A stretch of 64,000 nt of DNA, taken from Escherichia coli. GTDB lineage: Bacteria; Pseudomonadota; Gammaproteobacteria; Enterobacterales; Enterobacteriaceae. Under the pieces are notes generated by a model, which saw only the letters and a list, made by a program, of their open reading frames with translations, did not search any database and was not told the DNA's origin. Shown piece after piece: positions 5,595 through 53,128 of this stretch. The DNA lies in the NCBI RefSeq assembly GCF_044647545.1, contig NZ_CP172818.1; one strand, 5' to 3'. A program made the translations under genes and the position numbers. How positions within the stretch are numbered: position 1 is the first letter of the stretch; the number at the start of each line of letters is the position of its first letter.

Positions 5595-5865
5595 ATGCCA
5601 CTATCGTAACAAACGCCATGTGCTTACCCTGGCGTCAAGGGTCAATACCTGCAAGAGTGCGTGGAGAGGGGAAAGGGGTCCGCATCCGCGAGCCGCAATA
5701 TACGCAGGGCTGCAAGAAGATAGAGCGAGCCGCCGTTCAGGTCAACTACTGACGAACAAATCTTTTGCGAAGGGGATTGCAAATCCGACAAAAAGTGGGG
5801 TTTTTCAGACCAAAACGCGTTGTGCCTGCATAAAAGCAGGAGTGAAGCGGCGTACCGCGACGCCG

Positions 5866-5994
5866 CTATTTATCGGAAGGTTTATCTTGCTGCGGTTTGT
5901 TGTTGACCATATCGCACAACATAGAGAGCAGCATTAACCGTACTTTAAAGGGAGAATGACTAAACACGCGCATACACCTCTTGAACTCATTCAT
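5866..5994 (-). CDS. mntS: Small protein MntS (42 aa), manganese homeostasis; within the rybA locus
   Basis: Minus-strand ATG at 5994 translates to MNEFKRCMRVFSHSPFKVRLMLLSMLCDMVNNKPQQDKPSDK with a stop at 5868..5866; below the 60-aa cut-off of the ORF track; sits upstream of and divergent from mntR as in K-12. Confidence 0.8.
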   Translation of the reverse strand: MNEFKRCMRVFSHSPFKVRLMLLSMLCDMVNNKPQQDKPSDK

Positions 5995-6179
5995 AAGACC
6001 TCCTGACTTGCTAATCCCGTCGATCCTTGAGGGATGATTGCATTACATACAGATATAGCACAGGCTATATTATATAGCTATTGCTAAAACGTTAATTTTT
6101 TGTACCTTCGCAACTCTGGTTTACAATGTGCGCACGAAATGAGAACGCTATGTATGCGTCACCATAATGAGGAAGCACA

Positions 6180-6647
6180 ATGAGTCGTCGCGCAGGTACG
6201 CCAACAGCAAAAAAAGTGACGCAGTTAGTGAACGTGGAAGAGCACGTTGAAGGGTTCCGCCAGGTCAGAGAGGCGCATCGGCGCGAGCTTATTGATGATT
6301 ACGTTGAGCTGATTTCTGACTTGATCAGGGAAGTGGGGGAAGCTCGTCAGGTAGACATGGCTGCTCGTTTGGGAGTTTCGCAACCGACGGTGGCTAAAAT
6401 GCTTAAGCGACTGGCAACCATGGGGCTGATTGAAATGATCCCCTGGCGTGGCGTGTTTTTAACGGCAGAAGGAGAGAAGCTGGCGCAGGAAAGCCGCGAG
6501 CGACATCAGATAGTCGAAAATTTCTTGTTGGTGTTGGGCGTCAGTCCGGAAATCGCCCGTCGCGACGCGGAAGGCATGGAGCACCATGTTAGTGAAGAGA
6601 CGCTCGACGCTTTTCGTTTGTTTACCCAGAAACACGGTGCCAAATGA
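6180..6647 (+). CDS. mntR: Mn(II)-responsive transcriptional regulator (DtxR family)
   Basis: 155-aa ORF with a DtxR-type HTH ([17 protein letters not shown]); matches MntR. Confidence 0.95.
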
Positions 6648-7762
6648 GCCTGCCTTTTTTAAGCACGCTGCAAGGCGATCGTTTTTTTCAGTTATTAATT
6701 CTTGTTGGCATCGGATTAAGCTTTTTCGTTCCCTTTGCACCGAAATCCTGGCCTGCTGCTATCGACTGGCACACCATCATCACCTTAAGCGGCCTGATGC
6801 TGCTGACCAAAGGTGTCGAGTTAAGCGGTTATTTTGATGTGCTGGGGCGCAAAATGGTGCGCCGTTTTGCTACGGAGCGTCGGCTGGCGATGTTTATGGT
6901 ACTGGCGGCGGCGCTGCTTTCTACCTTTCTGACCAACGATGTCGCGCTGTTTATAGTTGTTCCGCTGACTATCACGCTAAAAAGACTGTGTGAGATCCCG
7001 GTTAATCGGCTGATTATTTTTGAGGCGCTGGCAGTCAACGCTGGTTCGCTACTGACGCCAATTGGCAACCCGCAAAATATTCTTATCTGGGGACGTTCTG
7101 GTCTTTCGTTTGCCGGATTTATTGCCCAAATGGCACCGCTGGCTGGCGCAATGATGCTGACACTCCTGCTGTTGTGCTGGTGTTGTTTCCCTGGAAAGGC
7201 GCTGCAATACCATACGGGGGCGCAAACGCCGGAGTGGAAACCGCGGCTGGTGTGGAGTTGTCTGGGGCTGTATATCGTTTTTCTGACGGCGCTGGAGTTC
7301 AAACAAGAGCTGTGGGGACTGGTGATTGTGGCGGCCGGCTTTGCGCTGCTGGCACGTTGCGTGGTGCTCAGTGTGGACTGGACGCTGCTGCTGGTGTTTA
7401 TGGCGATGTTTATCGACGTCCATTTACTGACCCAGCTTCCAGCGTTGCAAGGCGTGTTGGGTAACGTGAGTCATTTATCTGAACCCGGGTTATGGTTAAC
7501 GGCAATCGGTTTATCGCAGGTGATCAGTAATGTGCCGAGCACGATTTTGCTGCTCAATTATGTGCCACCGTCTTTATTATTGGCATGGGCGGTAAACGTA
7601 GGTGGCTTTGGTTTATTACCCGGATCGCTGGCAAATTTGATTGCGTTACGGATGGCGAACGATCGCCGTATCTGGTGGCGTTTTCATCTTTATTCGATAC
7701 CGATGCTGTTGTGGGCGGCGCTGGTGGGATACGTTTTATTCGTTATGCTCCCGGCCAACTAG
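6644..7762 (+). CDS. ybiR: Putative transporter (anion permease / ArsB-NhaD-like fold)
   Basis: 372-aa polytopic membrane ORF overlapping the mntR stop (ATGA); gene order matches ybiR. Confidence 0.85.
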
Positions 7763-7774
7763 GGTCTGGCCAAA

Positions 7775-7808
7775 TAAAAAAGGCGGATGATGAGTCCGCC
7801 TCTGTTTT
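7775..7808. terminator. Rho-independent terminator hairpin between convergent ybiR and ldtB
   Basis: aaaaaaggcggatgatgagtccgcctctgtttt: GC stem with flanking A-run and T-run. Confidence 0.7.
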
Positions 7809-7820
7809 ACGTTTTGACGA

Positions 7821-8741
7821 TTAATTCAGACGAACCGGCATCCCAGAACGATTTTTGATCGCTTCATCAAGAACAACCTGGTCAACATCTGGCTGACCGG
7901 TCACTGTCTGCACGCTCTTCGTCAGGGTAATTGGCACAATTTCCTGACCTTCAAACTGGGCTTCGGTGGTAGACAGCGGATTATGGACTTCAATATAACG
8001 GCTGCCGTCTGGCTCGGTGGTCGCTTTTACCGGCTCATCAATAAACTGCACGCGAGTACCGACAGGCACTTTCTCGAACAGGAATTTAATGTCTTCGTTA
8101 CGCAGACGCACACAGCCATGACTTACACGCAGGCCGATACCGAAGTTGGCGTTGGTGCCATGGATAGCGTACAGGCGACCGATGTAGAGTGCATACAGAC
8201 CCATCGGGTTATCCGGACCTGCCGGAACGACAGCCGGAAGCGGTTCGCCCGCAGCGCGGTACTCTGCGTGCATTTTGGCGGTCGGCGTCCAGGTCGGGCC
8301 TGCTTTCTTACGCTCAACTTTGGTGGTCCAGTTGATAGGCGTGTCTTTGCCTAACTGACCAATGCCGATGGGCAGCACGATAACGGTGTTGCTGCCTTTC
8401 GGATAGTAATAGAGACGCATCTCTGCGCTGTTAATGACAATGCCTTCATGAACGGTATCCGGCAGGATCAGCTGCTGCGGAATGTTCAGTACAGTACCGC
8501 CTTTCGGCAGGAAGGTATCCACACCCGGGTTAGCTTCCATCATGTTGGAAAGACCCATCTGGTACTCGGCGGCAAAATACTCCAGCGGCTGAGTGTTACC
8601 TTCAGGAATGGTGATTACCTGATTCTGACCAACCAGGCGACTCCCGTCGGTTGGCAGAGGATAAGTTACCGCAGAGGCGGTACTGCAAAAGCCGACAACA
8701 GCGAAGGCCGCTGCGAATAATGTTTTCAATTTCATATTCAT
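7821..8741 (-). CDS. ldtB: L,D-transpeptidase (YkuD domain; anchors Lpp to peptidoglycan)
   Basis: 306-aa ORF with signal peptide; catalytic region ...SHGCVRL... is visible; matches YbiS/LdtB. Confidence 0.9.
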
Positions 8742-8959
8742 GTTAAGCGAGATTTTGTGCCTGGCAGGCCATTGGGTTGAGAATATTAGAGTATTGGAAG
8801 CGCATTATAAGTTCATTCCAGCTCACAGTGAAATCAGATGTGTACGAAATCACATTTTTTGCCTTTGGGAAGAGTGTAGACCTTAAGCGGGGGACGGGAT
8901 CTTCTTTCAGACTTATGGCATAATACGCGGTTTGTCATATCTCTTTTCAGGATACGCCT

Positions 8960-10552
8960 GTGTTAGTTTCCAGTAACGTCACCATGCAGTTCGGCAGTAA
9001 GCCGTTGTTTGAAAACATTTCCGTCAAGTTTGGCGGCGGCAACCGTTACGGCCTGATTGGCGCGAACGGTAGTGGTAAATCCACCTTTATGAAGATCCTC
9101 GGCGGCGACTTAGAGCCGACGCTGGGTAACGTTTCCCTCGATCCCAACGAGCGCATTGGTAAGCTGCGTCAGGATCAGTTTGCCTTTGAAGAGTTCACTG
9201 TGCTGGATACGGTGATCATGGGGCATAAAGAATTATGGGAAGTGAAGCAGGAGCGCGACCGCATCTATGCTTTGCCGGAAATGAGTGAGGAAGACGGCTA
9301 TAAAGTGGCCGATCTGGAAGTGAAATACGGCGAAATGGACGGTTACTCTGCGGAAGCTCGCGCCGGTGAACTGTTGCTTGGCGTGGGAATTCCAGTGGAA
9401 CAGCACTACGGCCCGATGAGTGAAGTTGCTCCTGGCTGGAAGCTGCGTGTGCTGCTGGCGCAGGCGCTGTTTGCTGATCCGGACATTCTCCTGCTCGACG
9501 AACCGACCAACAACCTCGACATCGACACCATTCGTTGGCTGGAACAGGTGCTGAACGAGCGTGACAGCACCATGATCATCATCTCGCACGACCGTCACTT
9601 CCTTAACATGGTTTGTACCCACATGGCGGATCTGGATTACGGCGAGCTGCGCGTTTATCCGGGCAACTACGATGAGTACATGACGGCGGCGACCCAGGCG
9701 CGTGAACGTCTGCTGGCTGATAACGCCAAGAAGAAGGCGCAGATTGCTGAGCTGCAATCTTTCGTTAGCCGCTTTAGCGCCAACGCCTCGAAATCTCGCC
9801 AGGCAACTTCGCGCGCGCGCCAGATTGATAAAATCAAACTGGAAGAGGTGAAAGCCTCCAGCCGTCAGAACCCGTTCATCCGTTTTGAACAGGATAAGAA
9901 ACTGTTCCGTAACGCGCTGGAAGTGGAAGGTCTGACCAAAGGGTTTGATAACGGTCCGCTGTTTAAAAATCTCAACCTGCTGCTGGAAGTCGGTGAAAAA
10001 CTGGCGGTACTGGGTACCAACGGCGTCGGTAAATCAACGCTGTTGAAAACGCTGGTGGGCGATCTGCAACCGGACAGCGGCACCGTAAAATGGTCTGAAA
10101 ACGCGCGCATTGGTTACTATGCTCAGGACCACGAATATGAGTTTGAAAATGATCTGACCGTGTTCGAATGGATGAGCCAGTGGAAGCAGGAAGGCGATGA
10201 CGAGCAGGCGGTACGCAGCATTCTCGGTCGTTTGCTGTTCAGCCAGGACGACATTAAAAAGCCAGCTAAAGTGCTTTCCGGTGGGGAAAAAGGGCGGATG
10301 CTGTTTGGTAAGTTAATGATGCAGAAGCCGAACATTCTGATCATGGACGAACCGACCAACCACCTGGATATGGAATCTATTGAGTCGCTGAACATGGCGC
10401 TGGAACTGTATCAGGGCACGCTGATCTTTGTTTCACACGACCGTGAGTTCGTAAGCTCCCTGGCGACCCGTATTCTGGAAATCACCCCGGAACGCGTGAT
10501 CGACTTTAGCGGTAATTACGAAGATTATCTGCGTAGTAAAGGGATCGAGTAA
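8960..10552 (+). CDS. ybiT: ABC-F family ATPase (two ABC cassettes, no TM domain)
   Basis: 530-aa ORF with a GTG start and two Walker A motifs ([18 protein letters not shown]) plus signature motifs; matches YbiT. Confidence 0.95.
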
Positions 10553-10559
10553 CTGTTGA

Positions 10560-11202
10560 TCTCGTTTCCCAGATCCAGCAGCTGCTGAGGTTGTCATAAA
10601 ACAGGCCGAAGCTAAACGTCATTGCGGCGGGTGATGGCTAATGGAATGTGTTGTACAGCGGGTCAGTACTCACGGCGTTGTAGCCCATCGCGTCGAGGTT
10701 ACGCATCTCGTAACGTTTACCGTTGCGTTGCAGGTCGCCGGCTTTATCTCCGAGGCCATAAAAGCGTTCATCTTTACGACGGCTCTGATAGTGCGCCACA
10801 CCGTCACCGTGGGCATTCAGCAGATAAGCGCTGGTCGGTCGGTCATTCACTAACGGCAGCCATTTCGTCTTCGTTGTTACTATAGTGCCACTCCAGCCAC
10901 AGCGGCTGGTGAACGGTGGACCAGTGACTCGGTGGCGATAACCACGGCGTTGTTGTGCTGGTTCAGGTTCATGCGGGCAGGCCAGCCGCTGGACATTTTG
11001 CCGGCCGCGCCCTTCCCGATGGCACATCCTGCTGGAGCAATGCTCCAGGTGCGATCCAGCGCCAGCTCGCCTTTGCGTTTTAACAGCACGCGGAACAGAA
11101 TTCCAGCACGTACAGACGCAATACGCCCGCCATCGACCAGCAGTTCAACGTGGTGGGCAGACTGTTTGAGGTCCAGTTTTTCAGCGTTTCGACGTTGCAC
11201 AT
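10560..11202 (-). pseudogene. Remnant of a glycoside hydrolase family 31 gene (alpha-glucosidase/alpha-xylosidase-like): 5' portion only, frameshifted and truncated at the ybiT junction
   Basis: Minus-strand fragments carry GH31 N-terminal-region signatures (...LDLKQSAHHVELLVDGGRIASV...; ...ERFYGLGDKAGDLQRNGKRYEMRNLDAMGY...), spread over at least two frames, and only about 210 codons remain of a family that is normally about 700-800 aa. Confidence 0.55.
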
Positions 11203-11207
11203 CACTC

Positions 11208-12445
11208 TCAGGCGCGTTTTGCGCGACGTTCAGCAATAAAGGTGACCAGGAAGAAAGCGCCAATCAGGTCAAAGAAGCCCATGGCGATAAACAGGGCTTA
11301 AAGCCGATTTTGTCAGCAGTAACCCCGATAATCAGGGAGAAACAGGAAACTTGCTATCGACGCGGCAGAACCGCGCATGCCGTTACAGTGGCCATCTGAC
11401 CTTTGTCGAGGATTCCACTACTAATGCGCTAAGCATGCAGGAGATGATCTGGTCAACCGAAGCCGCCTATGGAAGATAAGGACGATGGCGATATGGGTTA
11501 TCCAGAAAGGCCATCACCGCCAGCGAAACCATCAGGAATGCGCCACTGACCGATCTATGCGCAATGGAGTTCACACTGACTCAGCCCAAACAGGCGGGTG
11601 TAAAGTTTGGTCAGATAGCCGCTGGCAATACTGCCAAGATCAGCGGCGAAGGAACGGCAACCAGGCGAAAGAGTGCGATCTGCTTCAGGTCGATGCCATA
11701 GGCATCTGGACAGGTATAGCGGAACCCAGAAACTCATCACCGCCCACGCCGGTTCTGCCATAAAGGCTGGGATAGTGATACCGTAAAAGCGTTTATTTTT
11801 GCCCACGGTTTTCAGTGCGGTCAGAAAGGGTAACTTGACCGGGGAGCTTCGTTATCCTGGCGGAGCAACCAGCTTGGCTTCGCTGAAGGTCAGGATGCTT
11901 ATCCGGGTTGCGATAAAACCCACCACAGCACCACCCACAGCATCGCCAGGATGCCAGTGGCATAAATGCGCCCTGCCAGCGAATGAAGCGTGGGCAAAAT
12001 AGATAATCGGTGGGGCCAGCATGGCACCGATGGAGTCTACGTCTGCCCAGCGGCGATCGGGCGTTGCGATTTTGGAAACCATTCACCTCATAGTTTTGGG
12101 GTTTGCCGGGGTGGCCGCGGCTTCCGCACCGCCCGATAAAGAAGCGCAACAGCGCCAGATGTACCCAGTTTCCCGCCCCCGCATGCATCAGACAGGCCAG
12201 CGCCCACAGCCCCTGTGCAGATCAGAAGCCCAGTTTGAGGCCAATGACGTCAATGAGCCACCGCATAACGGTTGAAATAGGGTATAGGCGAGTTGGAAAG
12301 CACCTACAATCCAGGAATATTGTTTTGTGCAATCCCCAGGCTGCTTTTCAACTCGGCGTACACCCAGCGAATTACGTGTGATGTAGTTGACAGTAACACC
12401 GAGCAAAAAAAGGACCAGCATCCACCAACGCAGATTTTTGAACAC
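11208..12445 (-). pseudogene. Decayed MFS transporter gene (N-terminus resembles ExuT/DgoT-type anion:cation symporters), multiple frameshifts
   Basis: ORF 12188..12445 begins MFKNLRWWMLVLFLLGVTVNYITRN (MFS N-terminal TM1 pattern); a C-terminal piece ...ALFIAMGFFDLIGAFFLVTFIAERRAKRA ends at a stop at 11210..11208; the body is broken into ORFs under 135 aa in different frames. Confidence 0.5.
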
Positions 12446-12769
12446 CGGCGTGGTTTACTGGCAGTCATATCAATCGATACCCACTGATATGCACTCCACA
12501 GAATGGTATAGGGGGGCGGCAACGTCAGACGGAGTTGTCACACCACTTTTAACCTTTTGATAAATAAAGTCTTTATTGTCTGTTTTTCCATTGTTCTTGT
12601 ACTGGAAGTTGTTGTCACATTTTTACAGTAAGAGACACTAAAAGCGAAAAAGAAAGCGGGTTTTGTGCACGTTTTTCCATGCGGCCCATACATTACTGAA
12701 ATGGATTTAATGCCAGACAGAATGGGCTTTTTTTGCTCATGAAAATTCTGTCATTTCCGAATTAGAGGA

Positions 12770-13800
12770 CATCAGAAATCGGCAAAGAGCTTAAATTGCC
12801 GATATCGCCGCACGTACCGGATTATCGCCGATACGGTTTCGCGGGTGCTGCTGGCAAAGCGAATACCAGTGCACGCGCTCGCGAACAGGCGCTGGCCTGC
12901 GCGTGAGTTGGGCGCGATGGATGGCATGGCAGCAGGTCATGTTGCTGAATACAACTCATCATTTTGCGCCGCAACGCGCGTTTGACCAACGATCTGATAT
13001 CTTTTATTACCTGGTGTGATCCAGCATCAGCAAAGCGTTATCGCCCGCATGAAGTGCGGCTGCGTTACTGCGTGTTAAGGTAGTTCTACAGCTGATCCCT
13101 GGCGTGATCTGGCGGCATGAATGAAGCAGATACGCAGGCGGCGATCCTGCTGGGGATCGACGATCCGCACATCCATGATCTGGCCGCCGATCGCTAAGCC
13201 TTGCGCTGATCGACTGCTGGTGATGAACGAATGCGCCTCCCGACGATTGCGCCGGACCATCGGTTAATCGGCGTGTCTGCCGCCCGCTATCTGTTTGAAA
13301 TGGGTCACCGGGAGGTGATGAACGTTATGTGCCTGCGCTCGGCCACACTATGGAGCAGCGGTTTGCAGGGATCAAAGAATCATGGCGTCAGCATAATCTG
13401 GCCTTTCACCATGACCGTCATTTGCTGAATATCAGCAGTTTTCTCAGCGCTAAAGAAGCGGAAGAAGGTCGGAGCGCGGCCTGATGCCGCCAATGGCAAT
13501 ACGTTGCCGACGGCGTTTCTGGTCGGCGGGGATTTTTATGGCGGCGGGAACGGTAAATGCGCTACATCGTCGTGGTCTGCGCGTACCACAGGATGTCTCG
13601 GTGATGAGTATCGATGGTCTTCAATCTTGCGGCAATCGAGGATGTTCCCGACGGCTGTGACGTGCCACGCGATCAGCTAAGGGTTAAGTGGTGCAAATGT
13701 TGCAACAGCGGCTGATTCGCCGGATGTCTGCGGTGGGCTCGCTGCTGCTGCACGGACGATTAGCGGTGCGGACGCGCGGCGGTTGCCCAGGAAAAGGGAA
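12770..13800 (+). pseudogene. Decayed LacI-family transcriptional regulator gene, multiple frameshifts
   Basis: HTH-like IADIAARTGLSP continues in another frame as DTVSRVLLAK...ARELG; the C-terminal region contains ...GLRVPQDVSVMSIDG..., typical of LacI/GalR effector domains, but split across frames with stops. Confidence 0.5.
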
Positions 13801-13833
13801 CACCGCCGTGGAACGGGAAGGGCTGTACGACAA

Positions 13834-15102
13834 TCATTCCATTCCCAGCGCTCGCTTACCGTGAATGTTGAGGTCGGCAAGCGTAAAGCGTCCTTCCCAG
13901 TTTGTTTCATAGTCCTCGCGCGGGAAGTCGCCCGGCGATGCGCCTTTTTCCAGTGCGGCCTTCACCTTGTGCGCGTAGGCAAGATTTTTCTCGCACATCG
14001 GTGCCGCAGGAATGTACATCACGTTGCCCCAACCCTGTTGATTTTCAACGGGGGCAACGGAATGGATGACGTCGCAGTGCCACCAGACGGAGTCTCCGGC
14101 TTCGAGTTGTGGAATGCTGGTTAATGCCTCAATCAACAGTGGATGCCATTGCTCTGATACCGGCAACACTCTTCCGGGCGCTACGCCGCACAGTTCATCC
14201 TCCGGCACATCATCAAGCAGCGGACGTAACAGCACGTACGCCATGGCTTCAGGAATGGGCACGACGTGCAGCAGTCCCTGACCAGGCAGCATATCAGAGA
14301 GCGCTGTCCAGCCCTGGAATGTCCGAAACACGGAACATTTGGTGGTGTTGTCCACCGTGTACTCTTCAACTTCTGTACGATGTGCCGCATGCCAGGGATC
14401 ATATTGCGCCAGATTGCCATTAAAGACGTTGGCGAAAACGCGCTGATACGCTGGAAGCAGCCAGCGTTCCAGTGCCCCGGAGTCGGTATGCGCTCCGAGA
14501 CCTTTGGAGGCCGTTCCGGGCGGACGGCGGCGGATACGGTCAGGGTAGATGACGCTCACATCCGGGTTAAACCATTGCTTTCCATCACTTTCAAATGTCC
14601 ACAGACGATTGAGAAACGACTGCGCATTCGCCATTTCTTCACTCTGGCGGGCCTGCATTTGCGCCTGCGACCAGTAGATGGGGTAAATCTCGGGACGTGA
14701 AGCGCTGAGCGTCCCGAAGAAATTATCGCCGGGGCCTTTGTAGACCTCATCAAAGCGGTTGCGGTCCAGATAGTCCAGCATCGACTGATCCCAGCCTAGC
14801 GCTTGTTCGCGGGGGAAATGGCCTTTTATCACCGCACAACCGCGACGTTTAATCTGTTCGCGTTGCTCTGCAGTAACATGACCTGCTTTGATATCGGCAT
14901 AAGACAGCACCGGCCAGACTGCATCGCCCTGTGCTTTGAGTGCGTTGATTTCAGCCACTCGCGTGGCAATGTCATCGCTTAGCTGATTAAAGATCTGCTG
15001 GACGTCGCCAAGCTGCGCCCGCAGCGCGTGCTTCATCTGACGGATAGCTGCTTTGTGATCGGCAGGCAATGTGTTGCTGGTAAAAGTAGAAGCCATAACC
15101 AC
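13834..15102 (-). CDS. ybiU: DUF1479 family protein
   Basis: 422-aa intact ORF matching YbiU; the true start may be a few codons inside (MASTFTS...). Confidence 0.9.
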   Translation of the reverse strand: MVMASTFTSNTLPADHKAAIRQMKHALRAQLGDVQQIFNQLSDDIATRVAEINALKAQGDAVWPVLSYADIKAGHVTAEQREQIKRRGCAVIKGHFPREQALGWDQSMLDYLDRNRFDEVYKGPGDNFFGTLSASRPEIYPIYWSQAQMQARQSEEMANAQSFLNRLWTFESDGKQWFNPDVSVIYPDRIRRRPPGTASKGLGAHTDSGALERWLLPAYQRVFANVFNGNLAQYDPWHAAHRTEVEEYTVDNTTKCSVFRTFQGWTALSDMLPGQGLLHVVPIPEAMAYVLLRPLLDDVPEDELCGVAPGRVLPVSEQWHPLLIEALTSIPQLEAGDSVWWHCDVIHSVAPVENQQGWGNVMYIPAAPMCEKNLAYAHKVKAALEKGASPGDFPREDYETNWEGRFTLADLNIHGKRALGME

Positions 15103-15247
15103 CTCGCATTAACTTTCATTCGAAACTATGCTGATTTGCATGTGACAATATAAGTTATAAATAAGTTAATGCAAGTTTAATGATTTGATGTGATGTACAG
15201 GATGTAAAAAGAAGGGAAAACCGGAGCGCATGGCTCCGGTAGAGAGG

Positions 15248-16063
15248 TCAGCTGTTAAAAGGGGATCTGTTATCCAGCACAGCCTGAATCACGTTCAGCG
15301 CGCCTTCATGATTATTATCATCGGTAGCATAACGGGCGATTTGTTTAATGTTTTCCGCAGCATTGCCCATCGCAAAGGAATAACGCGCCATTTTCAGCAT
15401 CTCCGCATCGTTACCGCTGTCGCCAATCGCTACCACATTTTGCGGTGACAGATCCCAGCGTTTCAGTAACCGCGAAATACCGTTTGCTTTATGTAGACCG
15501 GGAATAATCAGGTCGATAAAGCCAAAACCACTGGTGACGGGTTTCATAATGCCATCCAGCGCTATGTGCAGTTTGTCGATCACTAACGGGATTTGTTCAT
15601 CCGGCAGGTTGAGCGAAAACTTGAACAGTACGTCGTCAATCTCCTGATAATCTTTTACAGGTTTCAGGCGATGGTAGTGTTTTGCCATCAGTGCGACGAA
15701 TGCTTCGGGGGCATTTTCGCTGACATATGCACTTTGCAGACCGCAAGCGACAAAATTGAGTTGCTTATCTTTTAGCAACTCGCCAATAACAATCCGCGAT
15801 TCATGTCGGGTCAGTTCGCCGTGGAACAACTGCTTGCCATGTTCGTAAACCAGTGCGCCGTTTTCCGCGACAAAAGAGATCTCATCCTTTAGCTCAGGAA
15901 AGAACGAAATAAGCTGGTAATACTGATTACCGCTGGCGACAACGAACTCAATGCCGCGCTTTTTCAGTTCCTGATATTGCGCCATAAAACGTGGTTGGTT
16001 GTACGTTTTGGCGTCGTTAAGAAAAGTACCGTCCATGTCTGTGACGATAACTTTTACGCTCAT
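15248..16063 (-). CDS. ybiV: HAD-superfamily sugar phosphatase (Cof subfamily)
   Basis: 271-aa ORF with the HAD motif I (VTDMDGTFL); matches YbiV/SupH. Confidence 0.9.
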
Positions 16064-16208
16064 AGGTGTGCTCCTGGCTCGAAAATGAAACCGTAACAGT
16101 GTAATAACAATGTGACGCAGAGCACAAATTATATTTCGAATGAAAGCGAGGCTGAAATTGATGATGTGAATGATTTAGCCCGGCGACGACGACGCCGGGC
16201 TGAGGAGA

Positions 16209-18641
16209 TTACAGCATATGTTCAGTACGGGCGATGATATCGTCCTGAGCGTCTGGAGAGAGCGCGGTGAAGAAGGCGGAATAGCCCGCGACACGCACTA
16301 CCAGATCGCGGTACTGATCCGGATGTTTTTTCGCTTCCAGCAGCGTTTCGCGGGAAACGATGTTGTACTGAATATGCCAGCCTTTATGCACTTCAAAGAA
16401 GGTGCGTAGCAGGATCATCAGTTTCTGCTTGTCAGATTCGTTCTCCAGCGTTGCCGGATTCAGTTTCTGGTTGAGCAACACGCCGCCGAGAATCGCGGCC
16501 GTAGGCAGTTTACCCACCGAGCCAATGACCGCAGTAGGGCCAAGATGATCAGTACCGGAGGCCGGACTAGCTCCTTCTGCCAGCGGGGTATGCGCTTTAC
16601 GTCCGTCCGGCGTTGCCATCGTCTGCGCGCCAAAGGGTACGTTAGCGGAGATAGATGACGTACCCGCGTAATAATTGCCGCCAACCGGACCACGACCATA
16701 GCGCGGGTTATGGTACTGTTTTAGTTCGTCGATATAGGTCTGATAAGCGCGAGCCAGCAGCGTATCGACAGTATCATCGTCGTTGCCGTACTTAGGCGCA
16801 CCGTTAATCAGCCGCTGACGCAGCTGCTCGTGAGTCAGGCCGTCGAAGTCATCCGCCAGTGCGGCAGCCAGCTGTTGCTGACCAATCGCGCCCTGTTCAA
16901 ATACCAGTTTCTTCACTGCCGCCAGGCTGTTGCCGAGGTTAGCAATGCCGACCTGCAGGCCAGAAACCCAGTCATATTTCGCGCCGCCTTGCTTGATACT
17001 TTTCGCTCGCTCAATACAGTCATCCACCAGCGCCGAGCAGAGAATATCGTGTACGTTCTCTTCCAGCATGGTGTCGACGACATATTCGATTTCGATTGAT
17101 TTACGCGTGTAGTAACGGATTTGCGTATCCCATGCGTCCATTACTTCATCGAAGTTGTTGAAGTTACCCGCTGACAACGCTTTTTCTTGTGGCAGGAACA
17201 CTTTGCCGCTGGTGGCATCACGACCGCCTTCCAGCGCCGCCAGCATCACGCGGGCGAAGTTGATAAAGCTCATGCCGGTACAGCGATAGCCCCATTTGCC
17301 ACCGACGGCGGTTTCGATACAACCAATCGCTGCGTAGTCGTAAGCGTCCTGCGGTTCAATACCGAGTTTAATAAATTCCGGGATGACGATTTCATCGTTG
17401 TTGAACGCCGGCATCCCGAAACCACAGCGGATCACCTGAACACAGGCATCGAGGAAATCGTTACTCATACCCGCATGGTAACGCACGCTGAGGTTAGGCT
17501 GAGTCGAACGCAGGCGACCGCAGGATTCGAGGATCGCATAAGAGAGTGGATTTACCGCGTCCATCGGTTGACCATCAACCAGATTTTGCCCGCCAATGGT
17601 GACGTTCTGATACAGCGGACTTCCCGCAGAGGCTTTTGAGTGTGAGCCGGAGCGGATTTTGTTCACTTCCAGCAATTTCAACCAGCAGCTATGCAGCATC
17701 TCGATGGCGTGTTCGCGATCCAGTGTCTGGTTCAGTTCAACGTCACGGCGATAGTATGGATAGAGATACTGGTCCATACGACCAAAAGATACTGAGTGAC
17801 CGTTAGATTCGATCTGCAATATCAACTGGATGAAGTAACACAGTTGCAGCGCCTGCCAGAAAGTCTGCGGCGGTTGGTGGGCGATAAGATCGCAGTTTTC
17901 TGCCATCGCCAGCAGTTCATCGCGACGGCTTTCGCGGGTTTCGGTCGTGGCCATTTCACGCGCCAGGGCAGCGAAACGTTCAATGTGTTCACTGACTGCC
18001 ACCAGCACGATATCAATCGCTTTCAGGAATTGCTCGCCGTGCAGATCTTCCAGTACCGTCAGATTGATGCGCGAGCGACGTTCCGCCACTTTCTCACGCA
18101 GACCATCAAGCCCTTTTTCCAGCAGTAGCGGGAAATTCACCGCCAGGTGCGCATCGCCGGAGGTCATATTGCCCTCCGCTTTAATGATGCCGGTCGCCAG
18201 CAGACCTTTTTGCTCATCGGTAAACATGCCGTAGCAGCGATCCTGTACCGTCTGACCGCGCCACCACGGGCACACTTCATGCAGAACACGTTTGTTCTCC
18301 TCGCTCACCGCAAAACCAGCACCCGGACGATCTGCCAGATCATCAATCTCTTTTTCGATCCACGAGACGGTATATTCCGGGAAGATCGGCGCGGCGCGAA
18401 CCTCGCTTGCCTGGTTGCCGATGATCAACTCATCGTGCTTGATCCAGATGGTGCGATTCGCCAGGTGATGCGCCAGTGCCAGCGCGCGACGTACCGGGAT
18501 CGGCTTATCGAGATGTTGTTGATACATCTCGGTATAGTGCTGCGCGCGCTCGGTACAGACTGGTGGTTTCACAATATGCACCAGCGCATTTTTGTGCGCT
18601 TTAATGCGGTCGCTGAGCGTGTCCAGTTTCAGTGTGGTCAT
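16209..18641 (-). CDS. ybiW: Glycyl radical enzyme, pyruvate formate-lyase-like, substrate unknown
   Basis: 810-aa ORF with a C-terminal glycyl-radical motif (...VVRVAGYSAFF...) and a PFL-like fold; matches YbiW. Confidence 0.9.
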   Translation of the reverse strand: MTTLKLDTLSDRIKAHKNALVHIVKPPVCTERAQHYTEMYQQHLDKPIPVRRALALAHHLANRTIWIKHDELIIGNQASEVRAAPIFPEYTVSWIEKEIDDLADRPGAGFAVSEENKRVLHEVCPWWRGQTVQDRCYGMFTDEQKGLLATGIIKAEGNMTSGDAHLAVNFPLLLEKGLDGLREKVAERRSRINLTVLEDLHGEQFLKAIDIVLVAVSEHIERFAALAREMATTETRESRRDELLAMAENCDLIAHQPPQTFWQALQLCYFIQLILQIESNGHSVSFGRMDQYLYPYYRRDVELNQTLDREHAIEMLHSCWLKLLEVNKIRSGSHSKASAGSPLYQNVTIGGQNLVDGQPMDAVNPLSYAILESCGRLRSTQPNLSVRYHAGMSNDFLDACVQVIRCGFGMPAFNNDEIVIPEFIKLGIEPQDAYDYAAIGCIETAVGGKWGYRCTGMSFINFARVMLAALEGGRDATSGKVFLPQEKALSAGNFNNFDEVMDAWDTQIRYYTRKSIEIEYVVDTMLEENVHDILCSALVDDCIERAKSIKQGGAKYDWVSGLQVGIANLGNSLAAVKKLVFEQGAIGQQQLAAALADDFDGLTHEQLRQRLINGAPKYGNDDDTVDTLLARAYQTYIDELKQYHNPRYGRGPVGGNYYAGTSSISANVPFGAQTMATPDGRKAHTPLAEGASPASGTDHLGPTAVIGSVGKLPTAAILGGVLLNQKLNPATLENESDKQKLMILLRTFFEVHKGWHIQYNIVSRETLLEAKKHPDQYRDLVVRVAGYSAFFTALSPDAQDDIIARTEHML

Positions 18642-18646
18642 GGTTG

Positions 18647-19573
18647 TTATCCTCGTAAGGTCGCGGTTAACCCTTTCTGGCAGGCGTACTGCTGGGCAAA
18701 GTCGAGCAGTTCTGGCGCATCAAGCGGTTTTTCCGGGGCGTCATAGGGCAGATTAAGTAAGTGATATTTGTTGATGCCCAGCGTGTGGTAGGGCAGAAAA
18801 TGAATTTCGCCAACGTGCAGCTCGTCGGCGGCAAAATCGGTAATGGCTTTTACAGAGGTTTCGTCGGCATTAAAGCCCTGAATCAGCGGTACGCGGATAA
18901 TGATTTTTTTGCCCGCTGAGGCGAGTTTTTTCAGGTTATCCAGCACTCTGGCGGCGTTACCGTCGGTCCACTGTTTAAACGGCGCGTCGGCAACGTGTTT
19001 TAAATCGGCAAGAAACAGATCGATATAGGGCAGAGAAGGGGCGATATATTTCCACGGCACATGCAGACAGGTTTCTACCGCAGTATGAATGCCAGCCTCG
19101 TGGCTGGCTTGCAGTAGCGCCATCGCCATTTCCGGCTGCATAAACGGTTCACCGCCAGAAAGCGTTAAGCCGCCGCCGCTGCGATCGTAAAACGGTTTAT
19201 CGCGCAGAACGGTCGCCATGATCTCCTCAACGCTTTTCACTTCACCACACACGGTTAACGCCTGTGTCGGGCAGCAGTCGGTTAGCGCCGTCAGATGCTC
19301 CGGGGTTAACTTTTCCCGATGAATAAGCAAACCATTCAACGCGCGCTCAATCACGTCCGGCGCGGCCTTAGCGCACAGCTCACAGCCTTCCAGGCACAGA
19401 CGTGGGTCATACAGCAGATCCTGCGTGCGGGCGCGGCTTTCCGGGTTCTGACACCAGCGGCAGCCCAGCGAACAGCCTTTAAGAAATACGACCGTGCGGA
19501 TACCGGGGCCATCATGGGTCGAGTAGCGCTGAATATTGAAAATCATAGTTGCCTCTCTGTTTCGTTCAAACAT
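18647..19573 (-). CDS. ybiY: Glycyl radical enzyme activating enzyme (radical SAM)
   Basis: ORF contains the radical SAM CxxxCxxC cluster ([11 protein letters not shown]) and further Cys-rich ferredoxin-like motifs; lies immediately downstream of ybiW; an alternative start at MIFNIQ (19546) is possible. Confidence 0.85.
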
Positions 19574-19676
19574 TAAAATACTTTCGAATGAAAGTTAGAT
19601 TGATGTGCGTCAACTGTTCAGAGAGTTTTCCCGTGATAGTCTACATTCAGACAAAAAGTACATTTTGAGGATGGTT

Positions 19677-20339
19677 ATGGAACTGTATCTGGATACTTCA
19701 GACGTTGTTGCGGTGAAGGCGCTGTCACGTATTTTTCCGCTGGCGGGTGTGACCACTAACCCAAGCATTATCGCCGCGGGTAAAAAACCGCTGGAGGTTG
19801 TGCTTCCGCAACTTCACGAGGCGATGGGCGGTCAGGGGCGTCTGTTTGCCCAGGTAATGGCTACCACTGCCGAAGGGATGGTGAATGACGCGCTTAAGCT
19901 GCGTTCTATTATTGCGGATATCGTGGTGAAAGTTCCGGTGACCGCCGAGGGGCTGGCAGCGATTAAGATGTTAAAAGCGGAAGGGATTCCGACGCTGGGA
20001 ACCGCGGTATATGGCGCAGCACAAGGGCTACTGTCGGCGCTGGCAGGTGCGGAATATGTTGCGCCTTACGTTAATCGTATTGATGCTCAGGGCGGTAGCG
20101 GTATTCAGACTGTGACCGACTTACACCAGTTATTGAAAATGCATGCGCCGCAGGCGAAAGTGTTAGCCGCGAGTTTCAAAACCCCGCGTCAGGCGCTGGA
20201 CTGCTTACTGGCAGGATGTGAATCAATTACTCTGCCACTGGATGTGGCACAACAGATGATTAGCTATCCGGCGGTTGATGCCGCTGTGGCGAAGTTTGAG
20301 CAGGACTGGCAGGGAGCGTTTGGCAGAACGTCGATTTAA
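19677..20339 (+). CDS. fsaA: Fructose-6-phosphate aldolase 1
   Basis: ORF 19605..20339; the recognised FsaA N-terminus [32 protein letters not shown] begins at 19677 (220 aa). Confidence 0.9.
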
Positions 20340-20491
20340 CCGGACGTTCTGCATCCTCATCAATTGCTGATAACGTTGTGGAGTGCACCAAGCTTCCGCG
20401 CCTGAAATTCGCCCGAACTAGGCAGATAAGGTTACGCCGATTGGGTCTGAGAAAATTATCTGCCGCGACTTATCAGGCCTGGGGCTGGCAG

Positions 20492-21241
20492 TTACTGCCC
20501 GCACACCTCACACCCCGGATTACGCATCAGTTTCATTTCGCGAAACTGACAGGTCATCGCATCGTACATCACGATTTTTCCGCTGGCCGGTTTGCCATAA
20601 CCTGCCAGCAGTTTGATCGCTTCCATTGCCTGCAACGAACCAATTACGCCGATTAACGGTGCCATCACGCCTGCTTCTACGCAGGTTAACGCGTTCTCGC
20701 CAAACAAACGGCTAAGGCAGCGATAGCACGGTTCGCCGTCCTGATAAGTGAAGACCGTGATTTGCCCTTCCATACGAATTGCCGCGCCGGAAACCAGCGG
20801 CACCTTCGCGGCAAAACAGCCTGCGTTCAGTTGATTACGTACTGCAACGTTATCCGTACAGTCGAGCACCAGATCGTGTTTTGCAATCATCGCAGCAAGT
20901 TCAGCGTCATCAAGCAGTGCATTGACTGGCGTAATCGCGATATGTGGGTTGATCCGCGTCAGGGCGTCACGGGCGGATTTCACCTTCGGTTGCCCGACCG
21001 TGGCATCGCTGTGCAGCGTCTGGCGTTGCAGATTCGAGAGCGAAACCGTGTCGAAGTCGAGCAGCGTCAGGTTGCCGACACCGGCGCTTGCCAGATACTG
21101 CGAAGCTGCGCAGCCGAGTCCACCGAGGCCGACGATCAGCACACGAGAATCTTTTAGCGCCTCCTGACCGTCAAAATCAAAACCGCGCAGAATGATTTGC
21201 CGGTTGTAGCGCAGCATCTCCTGATCGCTGAGTTCCGCCAT
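20492..21241 (-). CDS. moeB: Molybdopterin-synthase adenylyltransferase
   Basis: 249-aa ThiF/MoeB-type E1-like ORF (GLGGLGCAASQYLASAGVG nucleotide-binding motif, C-terminal CxxC). Confidence 0.95.
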   Translation of the reverse strand: MAELSDQEMLRYNRQIILRGFDFDGQEALKDSRVLIVGLGGLGCAASQYLASAGVGNLTLLDFDTVSLSNLQRQTLHSDATVGQPKVKSARDALTRINPHIAITPVNALLDDAELAAMIAKHDLVLDCTDNVAVRNQLNAGCFAAKVPLVSGAAIRMEGQITVFTYQDGEPCYRCLSRLFGENALTCVEAGVMAPLIGVIGSLQAMEAIKLLAGYGKPASGKIVMYDAMTCQFREMKLMRNPGCEVCGQ

Positions 21242-32774: not shown

Positions 32775-32779
32775 TTAGA

Positions 32780-33700
32780 ATATTATACCCCTTAATCAAG
32801 GGTACTAATGAATTGGTAAATCATTTCAAACATTTTACTTTGCAAAAACTTCCGGCCCTTTTATTCCAATGTATTCAAAAAACGCAATGCCGGCCCCTTC
32901 TTTTTTTTTCTTTTCCTCCCCTTTTCTAAAACTTTTTTTTTTAAATTCCCTTTTGTTCCAAAACCGGGTGGATGCCCCGTCCGGCGGGCCTTTTTCTCTT
33001 CTCCCCCCTTTGTTTTTGTTTTGCTTATGGGCCGCACTCTCGGGTTTGTGACTTAAGGGGAAGGACAAACTTCCAAACAACAAACAGACCCACATTTCTT
33101 TCCTTTCTTTTCAATTTAATTTTTTTTTTTTTCTCCCAAAAAAAAAACAAATTCAAAAAAAATCTTTTTTTATTGCTAAAGGCCAGAAATGCATTTGCCA
33201 TTTTTTTGTAGGCCGCCAGTTCATCATCTTCGATTTCTTTGGTTCCTTTACTACTTAGACCACTCTTGGACCAACCATCATAAAAAAACACATGATTTGC
33301 TGATTTAAAAAAAATAATTTTTTTGCCTCCCCCTCTTTCTTTTTGAGGGGGAAATTTTTTTTAAGAACACCCCAACCTAAATCACCCTCCCATATGCCCT
33401 CCATCACTTCTCCAGCGCAAGCCATAAAAATTTTATATTAAAAACCAAGTTTTTTTTGTTTTGCGGAATCTTTCCCTTATACACACCCATACACCCATCT
33501 TTTGTTATTGTTTATATTATAAAAATTATTCTTTTTTAAAAAAAATTGAAAAAAAAAATTTATTTTGGAAAAAAAAAGGAGGGTTGCCCGAAGGTTTTTT
33601 TTTTTTTGATTTATGGGGGGGATTTTTGGGAAGGAAAGGAAAGGGGGGAGGGAAGGAGAGGAAGAAAAAAAAAAAATTAATTTAGATTTCTGCCTTAAGA
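32780..33700. other. Low-complexity, homopolymer-rich non-coding tract between convergent dgcI and rimO; origin unclear (possible assembly artefact or foreign/synthetic insert)
   Basis: Runs of at least 10 T, at least 10 A and 7 G, plus GA-rich and CT-rich blocks (e.g. ggaaggaaaggaaaggggggagggaaggagagg); only short Lys/Phe/Gly-rich ORFs; unlike the surrounding E. coli sequence. Confidence 0.6.
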
Positions 33701-33704
33701 TTAA

Positions 33705-47485: not shown

Positions 47486-47490
47486 GACGA

Positions 47491-53119: not shown

Positions 53120-53128
53120 GGAGCAAAA

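What the first reader, a model, noticed from the sequence alone, without database searches (positions are those of the whole stretch)
16209..19573. Glycyl radical enzyme with its activase (ybiW-ybiY), facing fsaA
YbiW carries the glycyl-radical fingerprint (…VVRVAGYSAFF…) and YbiY the radical SAM CxxxCxxC ([11 protein letters not shown]) plus extra Cys clusters. This is a complete anaerobic radical enzyme pair whose physiological substrate is, to my knowledge, not firmly established. Fructose-6-phosphate aldolase (fsaA) is immediately adjacent and divergently transcribed, and HAD sugar phosphatase (ybiV) lies on the other side, which hints at a sugar or sugar-phosphate related role.
Basis: partly seen in the sequence, partly recalled or inferred. 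Interest (0 to 1): 0.35.

Follow-up and report, generated by a model that had tools for sequence, protein, structure and literature searches.

The report
Known E. coli anhydroglucitol-phosphate radical enzyme pair

Summary
Window 16209-18641 (-) encodes an 810-aa glycyl radical enzyme with G786 in RVAGYSAFF and C441/E443 in GCIE. Directly upstream is its radical-SAM activase. fsa is transcribed divergently, and ybiV and ybiU lie downstream. The stretch is 100% identical to several E. coli genomes and is present in 5425 of 5426 complete genomes. YbiW differs from K-12 YbiW at 4 of 810 residues.

The claim that the substrate is not established is out of date. Ma et al. (JACS 2024, cited in PMC12441222) showed that YbiW cleaves 1,5-anhydroglucitol-6-phosphate to 1-deoxyfructose-6-phosphate. 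Crystal structures of E. coli YbiW exist (8id7, 8yjn).

One correction: the activase most likely starts at 19546 (299 aa), not 19573.

- An exact 13-mer, CTTTCATTCGAAA, sits upstream of ybiY/fsa, ybiV and ybiU. These are the genes derepressed in a yciT deletion (PMC8464067).
- The 13-mer is conserved in four other genera. In three of them a YciT orthologue lies next to the cluster.
- A conserved FNR-like box lies at about -41.5 relative to a putative -10 element of ybiY.

Verdict: already known, low interest.

The parts
16209..18641 (-). ybiW: glycyl radical enzyme, 810 aa. In K-12 it is the 1,5-anhydroglucitol-6-phosphate ring-opening C-O lyase. Radical glycine G786; catalytic C441 and E443.
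   Evidence: It is 806/810 identical to K-12 YbiW, and the top PDB hits are 8id7 and 8yjn, 'Probable dehydratase YbiW'.
18647..19546 (-). ybiY: radical-SAM activase for the glycyl radical enzyme, 299 aa. The radical-SAM motif uses C25, C29 and C32. Four more invariant cysteines (C51, C55, C58, C92) probably hold an auxiliary cluster. The open frame continues to 19573, but that start is unlikely.
   Evidence: The stop codon lies 5 nt before the ybiW ATG.
19677..20339 (+). fsa (fsaA): fructose-6-phosphate aldolase, 220 aa, with Schiff-base Lys85 present. It cleaves the YbiW product 1-deoxyfructose-6-phosphate.
   Evidence: NF009296, 449 bits; 1 aa difference from K-12. The pathway role comes from my recollection of Ma et al. 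2024; the review PMC12441222 only says the product is 'further metabolized'.
19582..19594 (-). Copy 1 of the exact 13-mer CTTTCATTCGAAA, in the ybiY/fsa divergent intergenic region. It lies between the FNR-like box and the -10-like hexamer of ybiY. Inferred to be a YciT (DeoR-family) operator.
   Evidence: It occupies the same position in Yersinia, Mixta, Brenneria and Kosakonia.
16134..16146 (-). Copy 2 of the 13-mer, upstream of ybiV and directly abutting a TATAAT hexamer.
   Evidence: A one-mismatch variant is present upstream of ybiV in Kosakonia.
15113..15125 (+). Copy 3 of the 13-mer, in inverted orientation, 17-29 nt upstream of the ybiU start codon.
   Evidence: Copies also lie upstream of ybiU in Kosakonia and, with one mismatch, in Mixta.
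19600..19613 (.). FNR-like box TTGACGCACATCAA as read on the minus strand, matching 9 of 10 consensus positions. Its centre is at -41.5 if TTTAAT (19577-19572) is the -10 hexamer of ybiY.
   Evidence: The box is a perfect TTGAT-N4-ATCAA in Yersinia and Brenneria. This is a prediction; no transcription start site is known.
16177..16201 (-). A 9-bp G+C-rich hairpin starting 8 nt after the ybiW stop codon, with no U-tract. It probably marks the 3' end of, or stabilises, the ybiYW transcript.
   Evidence: -20.5 kcal/mol, z = -5.9 against shuffles.
15248..16063 (-). ybiV: Cof-type HAD-IIB sugar phosphatase. It has the same candidate operator as ybiY.
13834..15096 (-). ybiU: DUF1479/Gig2-like protein of unknown function. 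It has the same candidate operator and is the most strongly expressed of the genes derepressed in the yciT deletion.
   Evidence: PDB 2dbi, 2csg; log2FC 7.0.

Best explanation
The locus is the E. coli core-genome operon ybiY-ybiW together with its divergent partner fsaA.

Enzymology. YbiY is a radical-SAM activase. It uses a [4Fe-4S] cluster and S-adenosylmethionine to abstract a hydrogen from Gly786 of YbiW, leaving a stable, oxygen-sensitive glycyl radical. During turnover the radical passes to Cys441. The thiyl radical abstracts H from C2 of 1,5-anhydroglucitol-6-phosphate, and Glu443 acts as the base. The resulting ketyl radical expels the ring oxygen from C1. This is a spin-centre-shift beta-elimination, the same chemistry as in glycerol and propanediol dehydratase-type glycyl radical enzymes. 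The C1 radical then takes the H back from Cys441, giving 1-deoxyfructose-6-phosphate. FsaA cleaves that product by retro-aldol reaction through Lys85 into glyceraldehyde-3-phosphate and hydroxyacetone.

Regulation. The DeoR-family repressor YciT holds ybiYW, fsaA, ybiV and ybiU off. I infer that it binds the 13-mer CTTTCATTCGAAA. I predict that an FNR class II site confines ybiYW expression to anaerobiosis.

Status of each step:
- Shown here: gene identity, catalytic motifs, near-identity to the characterised K-12 proteins, the conserved cis-elements, and synteny.
- Shown in the literature: the substrate and product, YciT binding, and derepression in the yciT deletion.
- Inferred: the step-by-step radical mechanism, the assignment of the 13-mer to YciT, and FNR control.
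For: Identity and conservation:
- The stretch is 100% identical to several E. coli genomes and present in 5425/5426.
- YbiW has 4 substitutions out of 810 residues relative to K-12, YbiY has 4 of 299, and FsaA has 1 of 220.
- The best PDB hits are E. coli YbiW, 8id7 and 8yjn.
- G786, C441 and E443 were read. The GC(I/V)E and RVAGYSAFF motifs are shared with PflD at 38% identity.

Function: PMC12441222, citing Ma et al. 2024, states that YbiW and PflD cleave 1,5-AG6P and 1,5-AM6P into 1-deoxyfructose-6-phosphate in a glycyl-radical-dependent reaction, and that this lets E. coli grow on 1,5-AG anaerobically.

Regulation:
- PMC8464067 reports YciT ChIP-exo peaks at ybiV and at ybiY/fsaA.
- The yciT deletion derepresses ybiY (log2FC 7.7), ybiU (7.0), ybiW (3.5), ybiV (2.2) and fsaA (1.8).
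- Three exact 13-mers lie upstream of exactly these transcription units.
- The 13-mer and the FNR-like box are conserved in five genera.
- YciT orthologues (59-65% identity) lie next to the cluster in Yersinia, Mixta and Brenneria.

Expression: YbiW protein increased in vivo in the anaerobic gut in Shigella.
Against: - The primary paper (Ma et al. 2024) could not be read here. The roles of FsaA, hydroxyacetone and GldA rest on my recollection of its abstract, because the review only says the product is 'further metabolized'.
- The four YbiW substitutions relative to K-12 (K184E, T232A, R474H, E769D) were not mapped onto the structure. I infer they are neutral only because they fall in segments that vary or are gapped against PflD.
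- The ChIP-exo peak coordinates listed in the supplement do not land on the 13-mers. After conversion from NC_000913.2 to .3 they lie about 100-155 nt away, so the operator assignment is indirect.
- No transcription start site is known, and no paper in the library links ybiY to FNR.
- fsa is absent from this locus in Kosakonia.
Confidence: 0.9

Rival explanations
1. YbiW is a pyruvate formate-lyase isoenzyme (formate C-acetyltransferase) and YbiY is its activase. This is what the older annotation and some papers say.
For: K-12 RefSeq still names it 'putative pyruvate formate lyase'. Older papers group ybiW with pflB, tdcE and pflD. It shares the PFL-like fold.
Against: The PFL equivalog models are far below their cut-offs: TIGR01255 scores 161.9 bits against 994.2, and NF007437 scores 579 against 1109. 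The Cys loop is G-C441-I-E443, with one Cys plus a Glu as in eliminating glycyl radical enzymes. It is not the adjacent Cys-Cys pair of PflB (sequence; the PflB C418/C419 pair is from my own knowledge). The closest non-YbiW structure is the B12-independent glycerol dehydratase 1r8w (E 1e-163), whereas PflB 1h16 scores E 1e-43. A different substrate has been shown experimentally.
Confidence: 0.02
2. YbiW is mainly a small-diol or glycerol dehydratase, or acts physiologically on another anhydro-sugar or sugar phosphate, and 1,5-anhydroglucitol-6-phosphate is only a side substrate.
For: The GCxE eliminase motif and about 40% similarity to glycerol and propanediol dehydratases. A sugar phosphatase (YbiV) and an uncharacterised enzyme (YbiU) are co-regulated, which the published pathway does not need. 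A 54%-identical homologue sits with a ROK kinase, a lyxose-isomerase-like cupin and a HAD phosphatase rather than with fsa.
Against: The review reports that the pathway supports growth of E. coli on 1,5-AG. From my memory of Ma et al., a substrate-bound crystal structure exists, and entry 8yjn is in the PDB. The downstream enzyme for the C6 product is encoded divergently, and this arrangement is conserved in four genera.
Confidence: 0.06
3. The repeated 13-mer is not a YciT operator. It is either a promoter element or the site of another factor, and YciT binds elsewhere in these regions.
For: The listed ChIP-exo peak coordinates are 100-155 nt from the 13-mers after coordinate conversion. The published motif logo could not be read.
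Against: Three exact copies in 64 kb, where about 0.002 are expected for an exact 13-mer, all lie in the promoters of the genes derepressed in the yciT deletion. The orientation is reversed at ybiU, which argues against a -35/-10-type element. A copy lies upstream of the yciT orthologue itself in Yersinia. CTTTC-type repeats are typical of DeoR-family operators (my own knowledge).
Confidence: 0.15

Closest known systems
E. coli K-12 YbiW/YbiY (b0823/b0824): the 1,5-anhydroglucitol-6-phosphate-cleaving glycyl radical enzyme and its activase (Ma et al., JACS 2024; PDB 8id7, 8yjn)
   Same: Same species and same chromosomal locus, with the same neighbours ybiU, ybiV, fsaA and moeB. YbiW is 806/810 identical and YbiY 295/299 identical. 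All catalytic motifs and all three 13-mer copies are identical.
   Different: Only allelic substitutions: K184E, T232A, R474H and E769D in YbiW. In addition, this strain carries remnants of a GH31/MFS/LacI island between ybiT and ybiU that K-12 lacks.
E. coli PflD/PflC (b3951/b3952): the 1,5-anhydromannitol-6-phosphate-cleaving paralogue (PDB 8yjo)
   Same: Same fold, the same GC(I/V)E and RVAGYSAFF motifs, and the same reported product, 1-deoxyfructose-6-phosphate. It is also linked to an FSA-type aldolase, fsaB.
   Different: Only 38% identity. It is embedded in the frw PTS operon, next to ptsA-fsaB-gldA. No copy of the 13-mer lies in that 17-kb region at up to 2 mismatches. The substrate is the C2 epimer.
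B12-independent glycerol dehydratase (PDB 1r8w) and related eliminating glycyl radical enzymes: propanediol dehydratase 5i2a, HypD 6vxc, CutC 5fau
   Same: The PFL2/glycerol dehydratase subfamily TIGR01774, a single catalytic Cys plus Glu, an activase with an auxiliary-cluster insert, and radical 1,2-elimination chemistry.
   Different: The leaving group in YbiW is the ring ether oxygen of a phosphorylated anhydro-hexitol, so the reaction opens a ring rather than releasing water or an amine. The equivalog models for these enzymes all score below their cut-offs.
Pyruvate formate-lyase PflB/PflA
   Same: The ten-stranded barrel fold family, the glycyl radical domain, and radical-SAM activation.
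   Different: PflB uses two adjacent cysteines and performs C-C cleavage. YbiW scores 162 bits against a 994-bit cut-off on the PFL equivalog model. PflA lacks the Cys-rich insert that YbiY has; it aligns only from YbiY residue 110 onward.

Membership tests
Glycyl radical enzyme superfamily | PFL-like barrel domain plus a C-terminal glycine-radical domain | tested here: met
   PF02901 E 4.7e-209 and PF01228 E 1.6e-32. TIGR01774 scores 1407 bits against a cut-off of 678.
Glycyl radical enzyme superfamily | RVxG fingerprint carrying the radical glycine | tested here: met
   VVRVAGYSAFF with G786. The motif is identical in PflD.
Glycyl radical enzyme superfamily | Catalytic cysteine on the Cys loop | tested here: met
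   C441 in GCIET, aligned with GCVEL of PflD.
Glycyl radical enzyme superfamily | Formation of a glycyl radical (EPR doublet) on activation | not testable with these tools
   Requires anaerobic biochemistry.
YbiW-type 1,5-anhydroglucitol-6-phosphate C-O lyase (anhydroglycolysis pathway) | Orthology to the characterised K-12 enzyme | tested here: met
   806/810 identical, at the same locus with the same gene order. PDB 8id7 and 8yjn are the top hits over the full length.
YbiW-type 1,5-anhydroglucitol-6-phosphate C-O lyase (anhydroglycolysis pathway) | Eliminase-type Cys-x-Glu dyad | tested here: met
   C441 and E443.
YbiW-type 1,5-anhydroglucitol-6-phosphate C-O lyase (anhydroglycolysis pathway) | Genetic link to an FSA-type aldolase that cleaves the product | tested here: met
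   fsa is divergent here and in Yersinia, Mixta and Brenneria. It is absent at the Kosakonia locus.
YbiW-type 1,5-anhydroglucitol-6-phosphate C-O lyase (anhydroglycolysis pathway) | Conversion of AG6P to 1-deoxyfructose-6-phosphate by this allele | not testable with these tools
   Reported for K-12 in the literature only.
Pyruvate formate-lyase (formate C-acetyltransferase) | Score above the curated equivalog cut-off | tested here: not met
   TIGR01255 scores 161.9 against 994.2. NF007437 scores 579.1 against 1109.
Pyruvate formate-lyase (formate C-acetyltransferase) | Two adjacent active-site cysteines | tested here: not met
   The Cys loop reads IGCIETA, with a single Cys. The Cys-Cys requirement is from my own knowledge of PflB.
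Activases of glycyl radical enzymes (radical SAM) | N-terminal CX3CX2C motif and a family model score above the cut-off | tested here: met
   C25, C29 and C32 in 299-aa numbering. TIGR02494 scores 368.5 against 174.35.
Activases of glycyl radical enzymes (radical SAM) | Cys-rich ferredoxin-like insert for auxiliary cluster(s) | tested here: inconclusive
   Four cysteines (C51, C55, C58, C92) are invariant across YbiY orthologues and PflC. That is enough for one cluster. The cluster content cannot be determined from sequence.
YciT (DeoR-family) regulon | YciT binding at the promoters, and derepression in a yciT deletion | tested here: inconclusive
   Binding and derepression are reported for K-12. 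Here I found three exact conserved 13-mers at those promoters and yciT orthologues adjacent to the cluster in three genera. The listed peak coordinates do not coincide with the 13-mers.
FNR class II-activated promoter | TTGAT-N4-ATCAA centred near -41.5 | tested here: inconclusive
   The box matches 9 of 10 consensus positions in E. coli and all 10 in Yersinia and Brenneria, at a conserved position. The spacing depends on an assumed -10 hexamer, because no transcription start site is known. About 2.7 such matches are expected by chance in the window.

The most novel reading that the evidence does not exclude
The published pathway needs only YbiY, YbiW and FsaA, plus GldA elsewhere. Yet ybiU (a DUF1479/Gig2-like protein of unknown function) and ybiV (a HAD sugar phosphatase) carry the same exact 13-mer. 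Both are derepressed together with ybiYW in a yciT deletion, and both travel with the cluster in Kosakonia and Mixta. A YbiV-like HAD also sits beside a 54%-identical YbiW homologue.

The most novel reading not excluded is that these two genes are uncharacterised members of the anhydro-sugar regulon. YbiU could be an oxygen-dependent counterpart of the oxygen-sensitive YbiW: hydroxylation of AG6P at C1 would give glucose-6-phosphate directly. YbiV could be a relief valve that dephosphorylates AG6P, as G6PC3 does in humans. Nobody appears to have tested either idea.
Probability: 0.2. Interest if true: 0.5.

Novelty: already known. Interest (0 to 1): 0.13.

Why it matters
The gene pair itself adds nothing new. 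It is a core E. coli locus whose substrate, product, structure and repressor have all been published. The review of 1,5-anhydroglucitol metabolism notes the medical angle: gut bacteria degrade 1,5-AG through this enzyme, but probably too far down the gut to lower host levels in GSD Ib or G6PC3 neutropenia.

The modest value added here lies in three points:
- A concrete candidate operator sequence and a predicted FNR site. These would let the logic "anaerobic and anhydro-sugar present" be tested with simple reporter fusions.
- The observation that ybiU and ybiV belong to the same regulatory unit but have no assigned role in the pathway.
- A corrected start codon for ybiY.

Tried and rejected
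- The primary paper (doi 10.1021/jacs.4c07718) is not held, so pathway details beyond the review's summary rest on my memory.
- Literature searches for ybiY with FNR, for DUF1479/YbiU function, for 'anhydroglycolysis' and related terms and for the Gig2 structure gave nothing useful.
- I tried to place the published YciT ChIP-exo peak coordinates on the 13-mers. They do not coincide under either NC_000913.2 or .3 numbering, so the link stays indirect.
- I looked for the 13-mer in the K-12 frw-pflDC/ptsA-fsaB-gldA region and upstream of yciT. No convincing copy was found, so the PflD branch appears to be regulated separately.
- A weak-hit Pfam scan of YbiU, meant to connect it to a 2OG-oxygenase family, found nothing beyond Gig2-like.
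- I considered a collection-wide scan for the 14-mer operator but did not run it. Thousands of chance hits are expected in 298 Gb.
- I considered that the neighbouring GH31 gene might be an anhydrofructose-forming glucan lyase feeding the pathway. In this window the gene is largely deleted and scrambled, so I did not pursue it.
- More distant YbiW homologues (44-46% identity) sit in unrelated or uninformative contexts and were not used as evidence.
Full report
**Observation.** The two ORFs exist exactly as described, at 16209-18641 (-), 810 aa, and 18647-19573 (-), 308 aa.
- The larger protein carries Pfam PFL-like (E 4.7e-209) and Gly_radical (E 1.6e-32) domains. It scores 1407 bits on NCBIfam TIGR01774, the PFL2/glycerol dehydratase subfamily, against a cut-off of 678.
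- The quoted fingerprint VVRVAGYSAFF is present with the radical glycine at G786. The Cys loop reads G-C441-I-E443-T.
- The smaller protein matches the activase subfamily TIGR02494 (368 bits against 174) and carries CSLGCRWC.
- fsa lies divergently at 19677-20339 (+). ybiV lies at 15248-16063 (-) and ybiU at 13834-15096 (-).
- The 4-kb stretch is 100% identical to several E. coli chromosomes and occurs in 5425 of 5426 complete genomes. It is a core locus, not a chance feature.

**Correction to the coordinates.** RefSeq annotates YbiY as 299 aa, starting at window 19546. Orthologues in Mixta, Brenneria and Kosakonia are all 299 aa and start with MIFNIQRYS. That ATG is preceded by AGAGAGG at a 5-nt spacing. 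The ATG at 19573 has no Shine-Dalgarno sequence and lies inside a conserved -10-like hexamer. The ybiY stop is 5 nt from the ybiW ATG, which is consistent with coupled translation.

**What it is.**
- Against K-12 MG1655, YbiW differs at 4 of 810 residues (K184E, T232A, R474H, E769D). YbiY differs at 4 of 299, FsaA at 1 of 220 and YbiV at 3 of 271.
- The best PDB matches are 8id7 and 8yjn, both named 'Probable dehydratase YbiW'. The paralogue PflD has also been solved (8yjo).
- The review PMC12441222 summarises Ma et al., J. Am. Chem. Soc. [quoted passage not shown] 1,5-Anhydroglucitol and 1,5-anhydromannitol are phosphorylated by a PTS. YbiW and PflD cleave the 6-phosphates into 1-deoxyfructose-6-phosphate in a glycyl-radical-dependent, oxygen-sensitive reaction. 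This lets E. coli and many gut bacteria grow on 1,5-AG.
- I could not read the primary paper. From my recollection of its abstract, FsaA and FsaB cleave 1-deoxyfructose-6-phosphate to glyceraldehyde-3-phosphate and hydroxyacetone, and GldA reduces the latter to 1,2-propanediol. That FSA accepts hydroxyacetone as an aldol donor is established biocatalysis knowledge.
- The window's FsaA retains the Schiff-base Lys85, read directly from the sequence.

**Mechanism.**
- The single Cys plus Glu in the Cys loop is the signature of eliminating glycyl radical enzymes such as glycerol and propanediol dehydratase, HypD and CutC. These are the closest non-YbiW structures (1r8w at E 1e-163). PflB is far more distant (E 1e-43).
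- The PFL equivalog models fall far below their cut-offs, at 162 against 994 bits. The old name 'pyruvate formate lyase' fails a membership test.
- The inferred sequence of steps is as follows. YbiY generates G786•. The radical moves to C441. H is abstracted from C2 of AG6P, and E443 assists deprotonation. The C1-O5 bond breaks by beta-elimination. H returns to C1, giving the 2-keto, 1-deoxy product.
- Only the substrate and product are documented. The individual steps are inferred by analogy.

**Regulation (added here).**
- The exact 13-mer CTTTCATTCGAAA occurs three times in the 64-kb window and nowhere else. About 0.002 exact copies of a 13-mer would be expected by chance.
- The copies lie at 19582-19594 (-) in the ybiY/fsa intergenic region, at 16134-16146 (-) upstream of ybiV abutting a TATAAT, and at 15113-15125 (+) just upstream of ybiU. 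K-12 has the same three copies.
- Gao et al. 2021 (PMC8464067) reported ChIP-exo peaks of the DeoR-family regulator YciT at ybiV and at ybiY/fsaA.
- In their yciT deletion, ybiY (log2FC 7.7), ybiU (7.0), ybiW (3.5), ybiV (2.2) and fsaA (1.8) were all derepressed. These are the same transcription units that carry the 13-mer.
- In Yersinia pseudotuberculosis, Mixta calida and Brenneria, the fsa/ybiY-ybiW arrangement is conserved. A DeoR-family gene 65%, 59% and 62% identical to E. coli YciT lies beside it.
- In all four additional genera, CTTTC[A/T]TTCGAAA sits about 40-50 nt upstream of the ybiY start. In Yersinia a variant with G at the degenerate position (CTTTCGTTCGAAA) lies upstream of the yciT orthologue itself. 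Kosakonia and Mixta have copies upstream of ybiU, and Kosakonia also has a one-mismatch copy upstream of ybiV.
- I therefore assign the 13-mer to YciT, with one caveat. The peak coordinates in the paper's supplement fall 100-155 nt from the 13-mers after coordinate conversion. I could not see the published motif logo.

**FNR prediction.**
- The five-genus alignment shows a conserved FNR-like box 5 nt upstream of the operator. It reads TTGACGCACATCAA in E. coli (window 19613-19600, minus strand) and is a perfect TTGAT-N4-ATCAA in Yersinia and Brenneria.
- If the conserved TTTAAT (19577-19572) is the -10 hexamer, the box centre is at -41.5. That is the class II FNR geometry. The operator would then occupy the -35 and spacer region, where a repressor excludes RNA polymerase.
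- This remains a prediction. No transcription start site is known, about 2.7 boxes of this quality are expected by chance in the window, and no paper in the library links ybiY with FNR.
- It agrees with the oxygen sensitivity of the enzyme and with the in-vivo rise of YbiW in gut-grown Shigella.
- A 9-bp G+C hairpin without a U-tract follows the ybiW stop (z = -5.9). ybiYW, ybiV and ybiU therefore look like separate, co-regulated transcription units.

**Distribution.**
- Close orthologues (86-93% identity) are found across Enterobacterales, including Yokenella, Phytobacter, Kosakonia, Mixta, Pantoea, Yersinia, Brenneria and Erwinia.
- In the 50%-clustered library the next clusters are 54%, 46% and 43-44% identical.
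- The 54% homologue sits with a ROK kinase, a DeoR-family regulator and a YbiV-like HAD phosphatase, but without fsa.
- The 44-46% homologues sit in unrelated or uninformative contexts.
- In Kosakonia the order is moeA-moeB-ybiY-ybiW-ybiV-ybiU-LacI-MFS-GH31, with no fsa between moeB and ybiY.

**Comparison, novelty and verdict.** This is the known YbiW/YbiY system, not a relative of it. The premise that the substrate is open has been obsolete since 2024. Novelty: already known. Interest: low (0.13).

**Residual open point.** ybiU and ybiV share the operator and the derepression, and in some genera the synteny, but have no role in the published pathway. An oxygen-dependent or detoxifying branch of anhydro-sugar metabolism is possible but untested. 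My recollection that YbiU has a clavaminate-synthase-like fold was not tested here. Its solved structures are 2dbi and 2csg.

**Seen in passing.** The window is essentially identical to E. coli FDAARGOS_497 over core genes, but two strain-variable modules are scrambled.
- The GH31/MFS/LacI island between ybiT and ybiU (10554-13840) carries a 1.9-kb deletion, 144 substitutions (transitions/transversions about 1) and 133 indel positions.
- The HTH/RelE toxin-antitoxin pair (about 32500-34000) is similarly affected.
- No complete E. coli genome matched the queried stretch containing the first tract (window 7000-15200) better than 96.8% overall. I have no natural explanation for flanks that are 100% identical around tracts about 8% divergent and rich in indels.

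Noticed in passing
window 10554-13840: The tract runs from just after the ybiT stop to the ybiU stop. It is a scrambled remnant of a GH31 glycosidase / MFS transporter / LacI-regulator island. Relative to E. coli FDAARGOS_497 it has a 1.9-kb deletion, 144 substitutions (73 transitions, 71 transversions) and 133 indel positions, spread evenly. Both flanks are 100% identical to that genome. No ORF of 160 aa or more remains. No complete E. coli genome matched the queried stretch containing it (7000-15200) better than 96.8% overall. This is unexplained: it could be an edited or noisy sequence, or an imported decayed allele. It changes the last 2-3 residues of YbiU.
   Followed up: partly
window ~32500-34000: A second tract of the same kind, with 93 mismatches and 40 gap positions plus an unaligned piece at 32950-33170. 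It corresponds to the HTH-antitoxin / RelE-ParE toxin pair between dgcI and rimO in FDAARGOS_497. Surrounding core genes are identical.
   Followed up: partly
window 13834-15096 (ybiU) and 15248-16063 (ybiV): ybiU (DUF1479/Gig2-like, structures 2dbi and 2csg, function unknown) and ybiV (HAD sugar phosphatase) each have their own exact copy of the 13-mer found at ybiY. Both are derepressed in a yciT deletion, yet neither has a role in the published anhydroglucitol pathway.
   Followed up: partly
L008 (Kosakonia sacchari) 13085-18140; L001 (E. coli FDAARGOS_497) 4790-9865: An intact LacI-MFS-GH31 module lies directly beside ybiU in Kosakonia and in about 576 E. coli genomes. K-12 lacks it. Whether it feeds or relates to the ybiUVWY genes is unknown.
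   Followed up: no
L003 (Yersinia pseudotuberculosis) 7098-7996: The ybiY orthologue is split into two ORFs (135 and 164 aa) by a frameshift. The activase may therefore be a pseudogene in that strain, although ybiW is intact.
   Followed up: no
window ~20340-20500: A 25-nt indel relative to FDAARGOS_497 in the fsa-moeB intergenic region.
   Followed up: no
window 44985-64000: Downstream of rcdA the window stops aligning to the fetched FDAARGOS_497 stretch, which carries a P2-like prophage there. The window's content in this part was not examined.
   Followed up: no
protein P0007: A 1047-aa database protein combines YbiW with HAD (YbiV-like) domains. It is probably a read-through or frameshift artefact of the adjacent ybiW and ybiV genes.
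   Followed up: no
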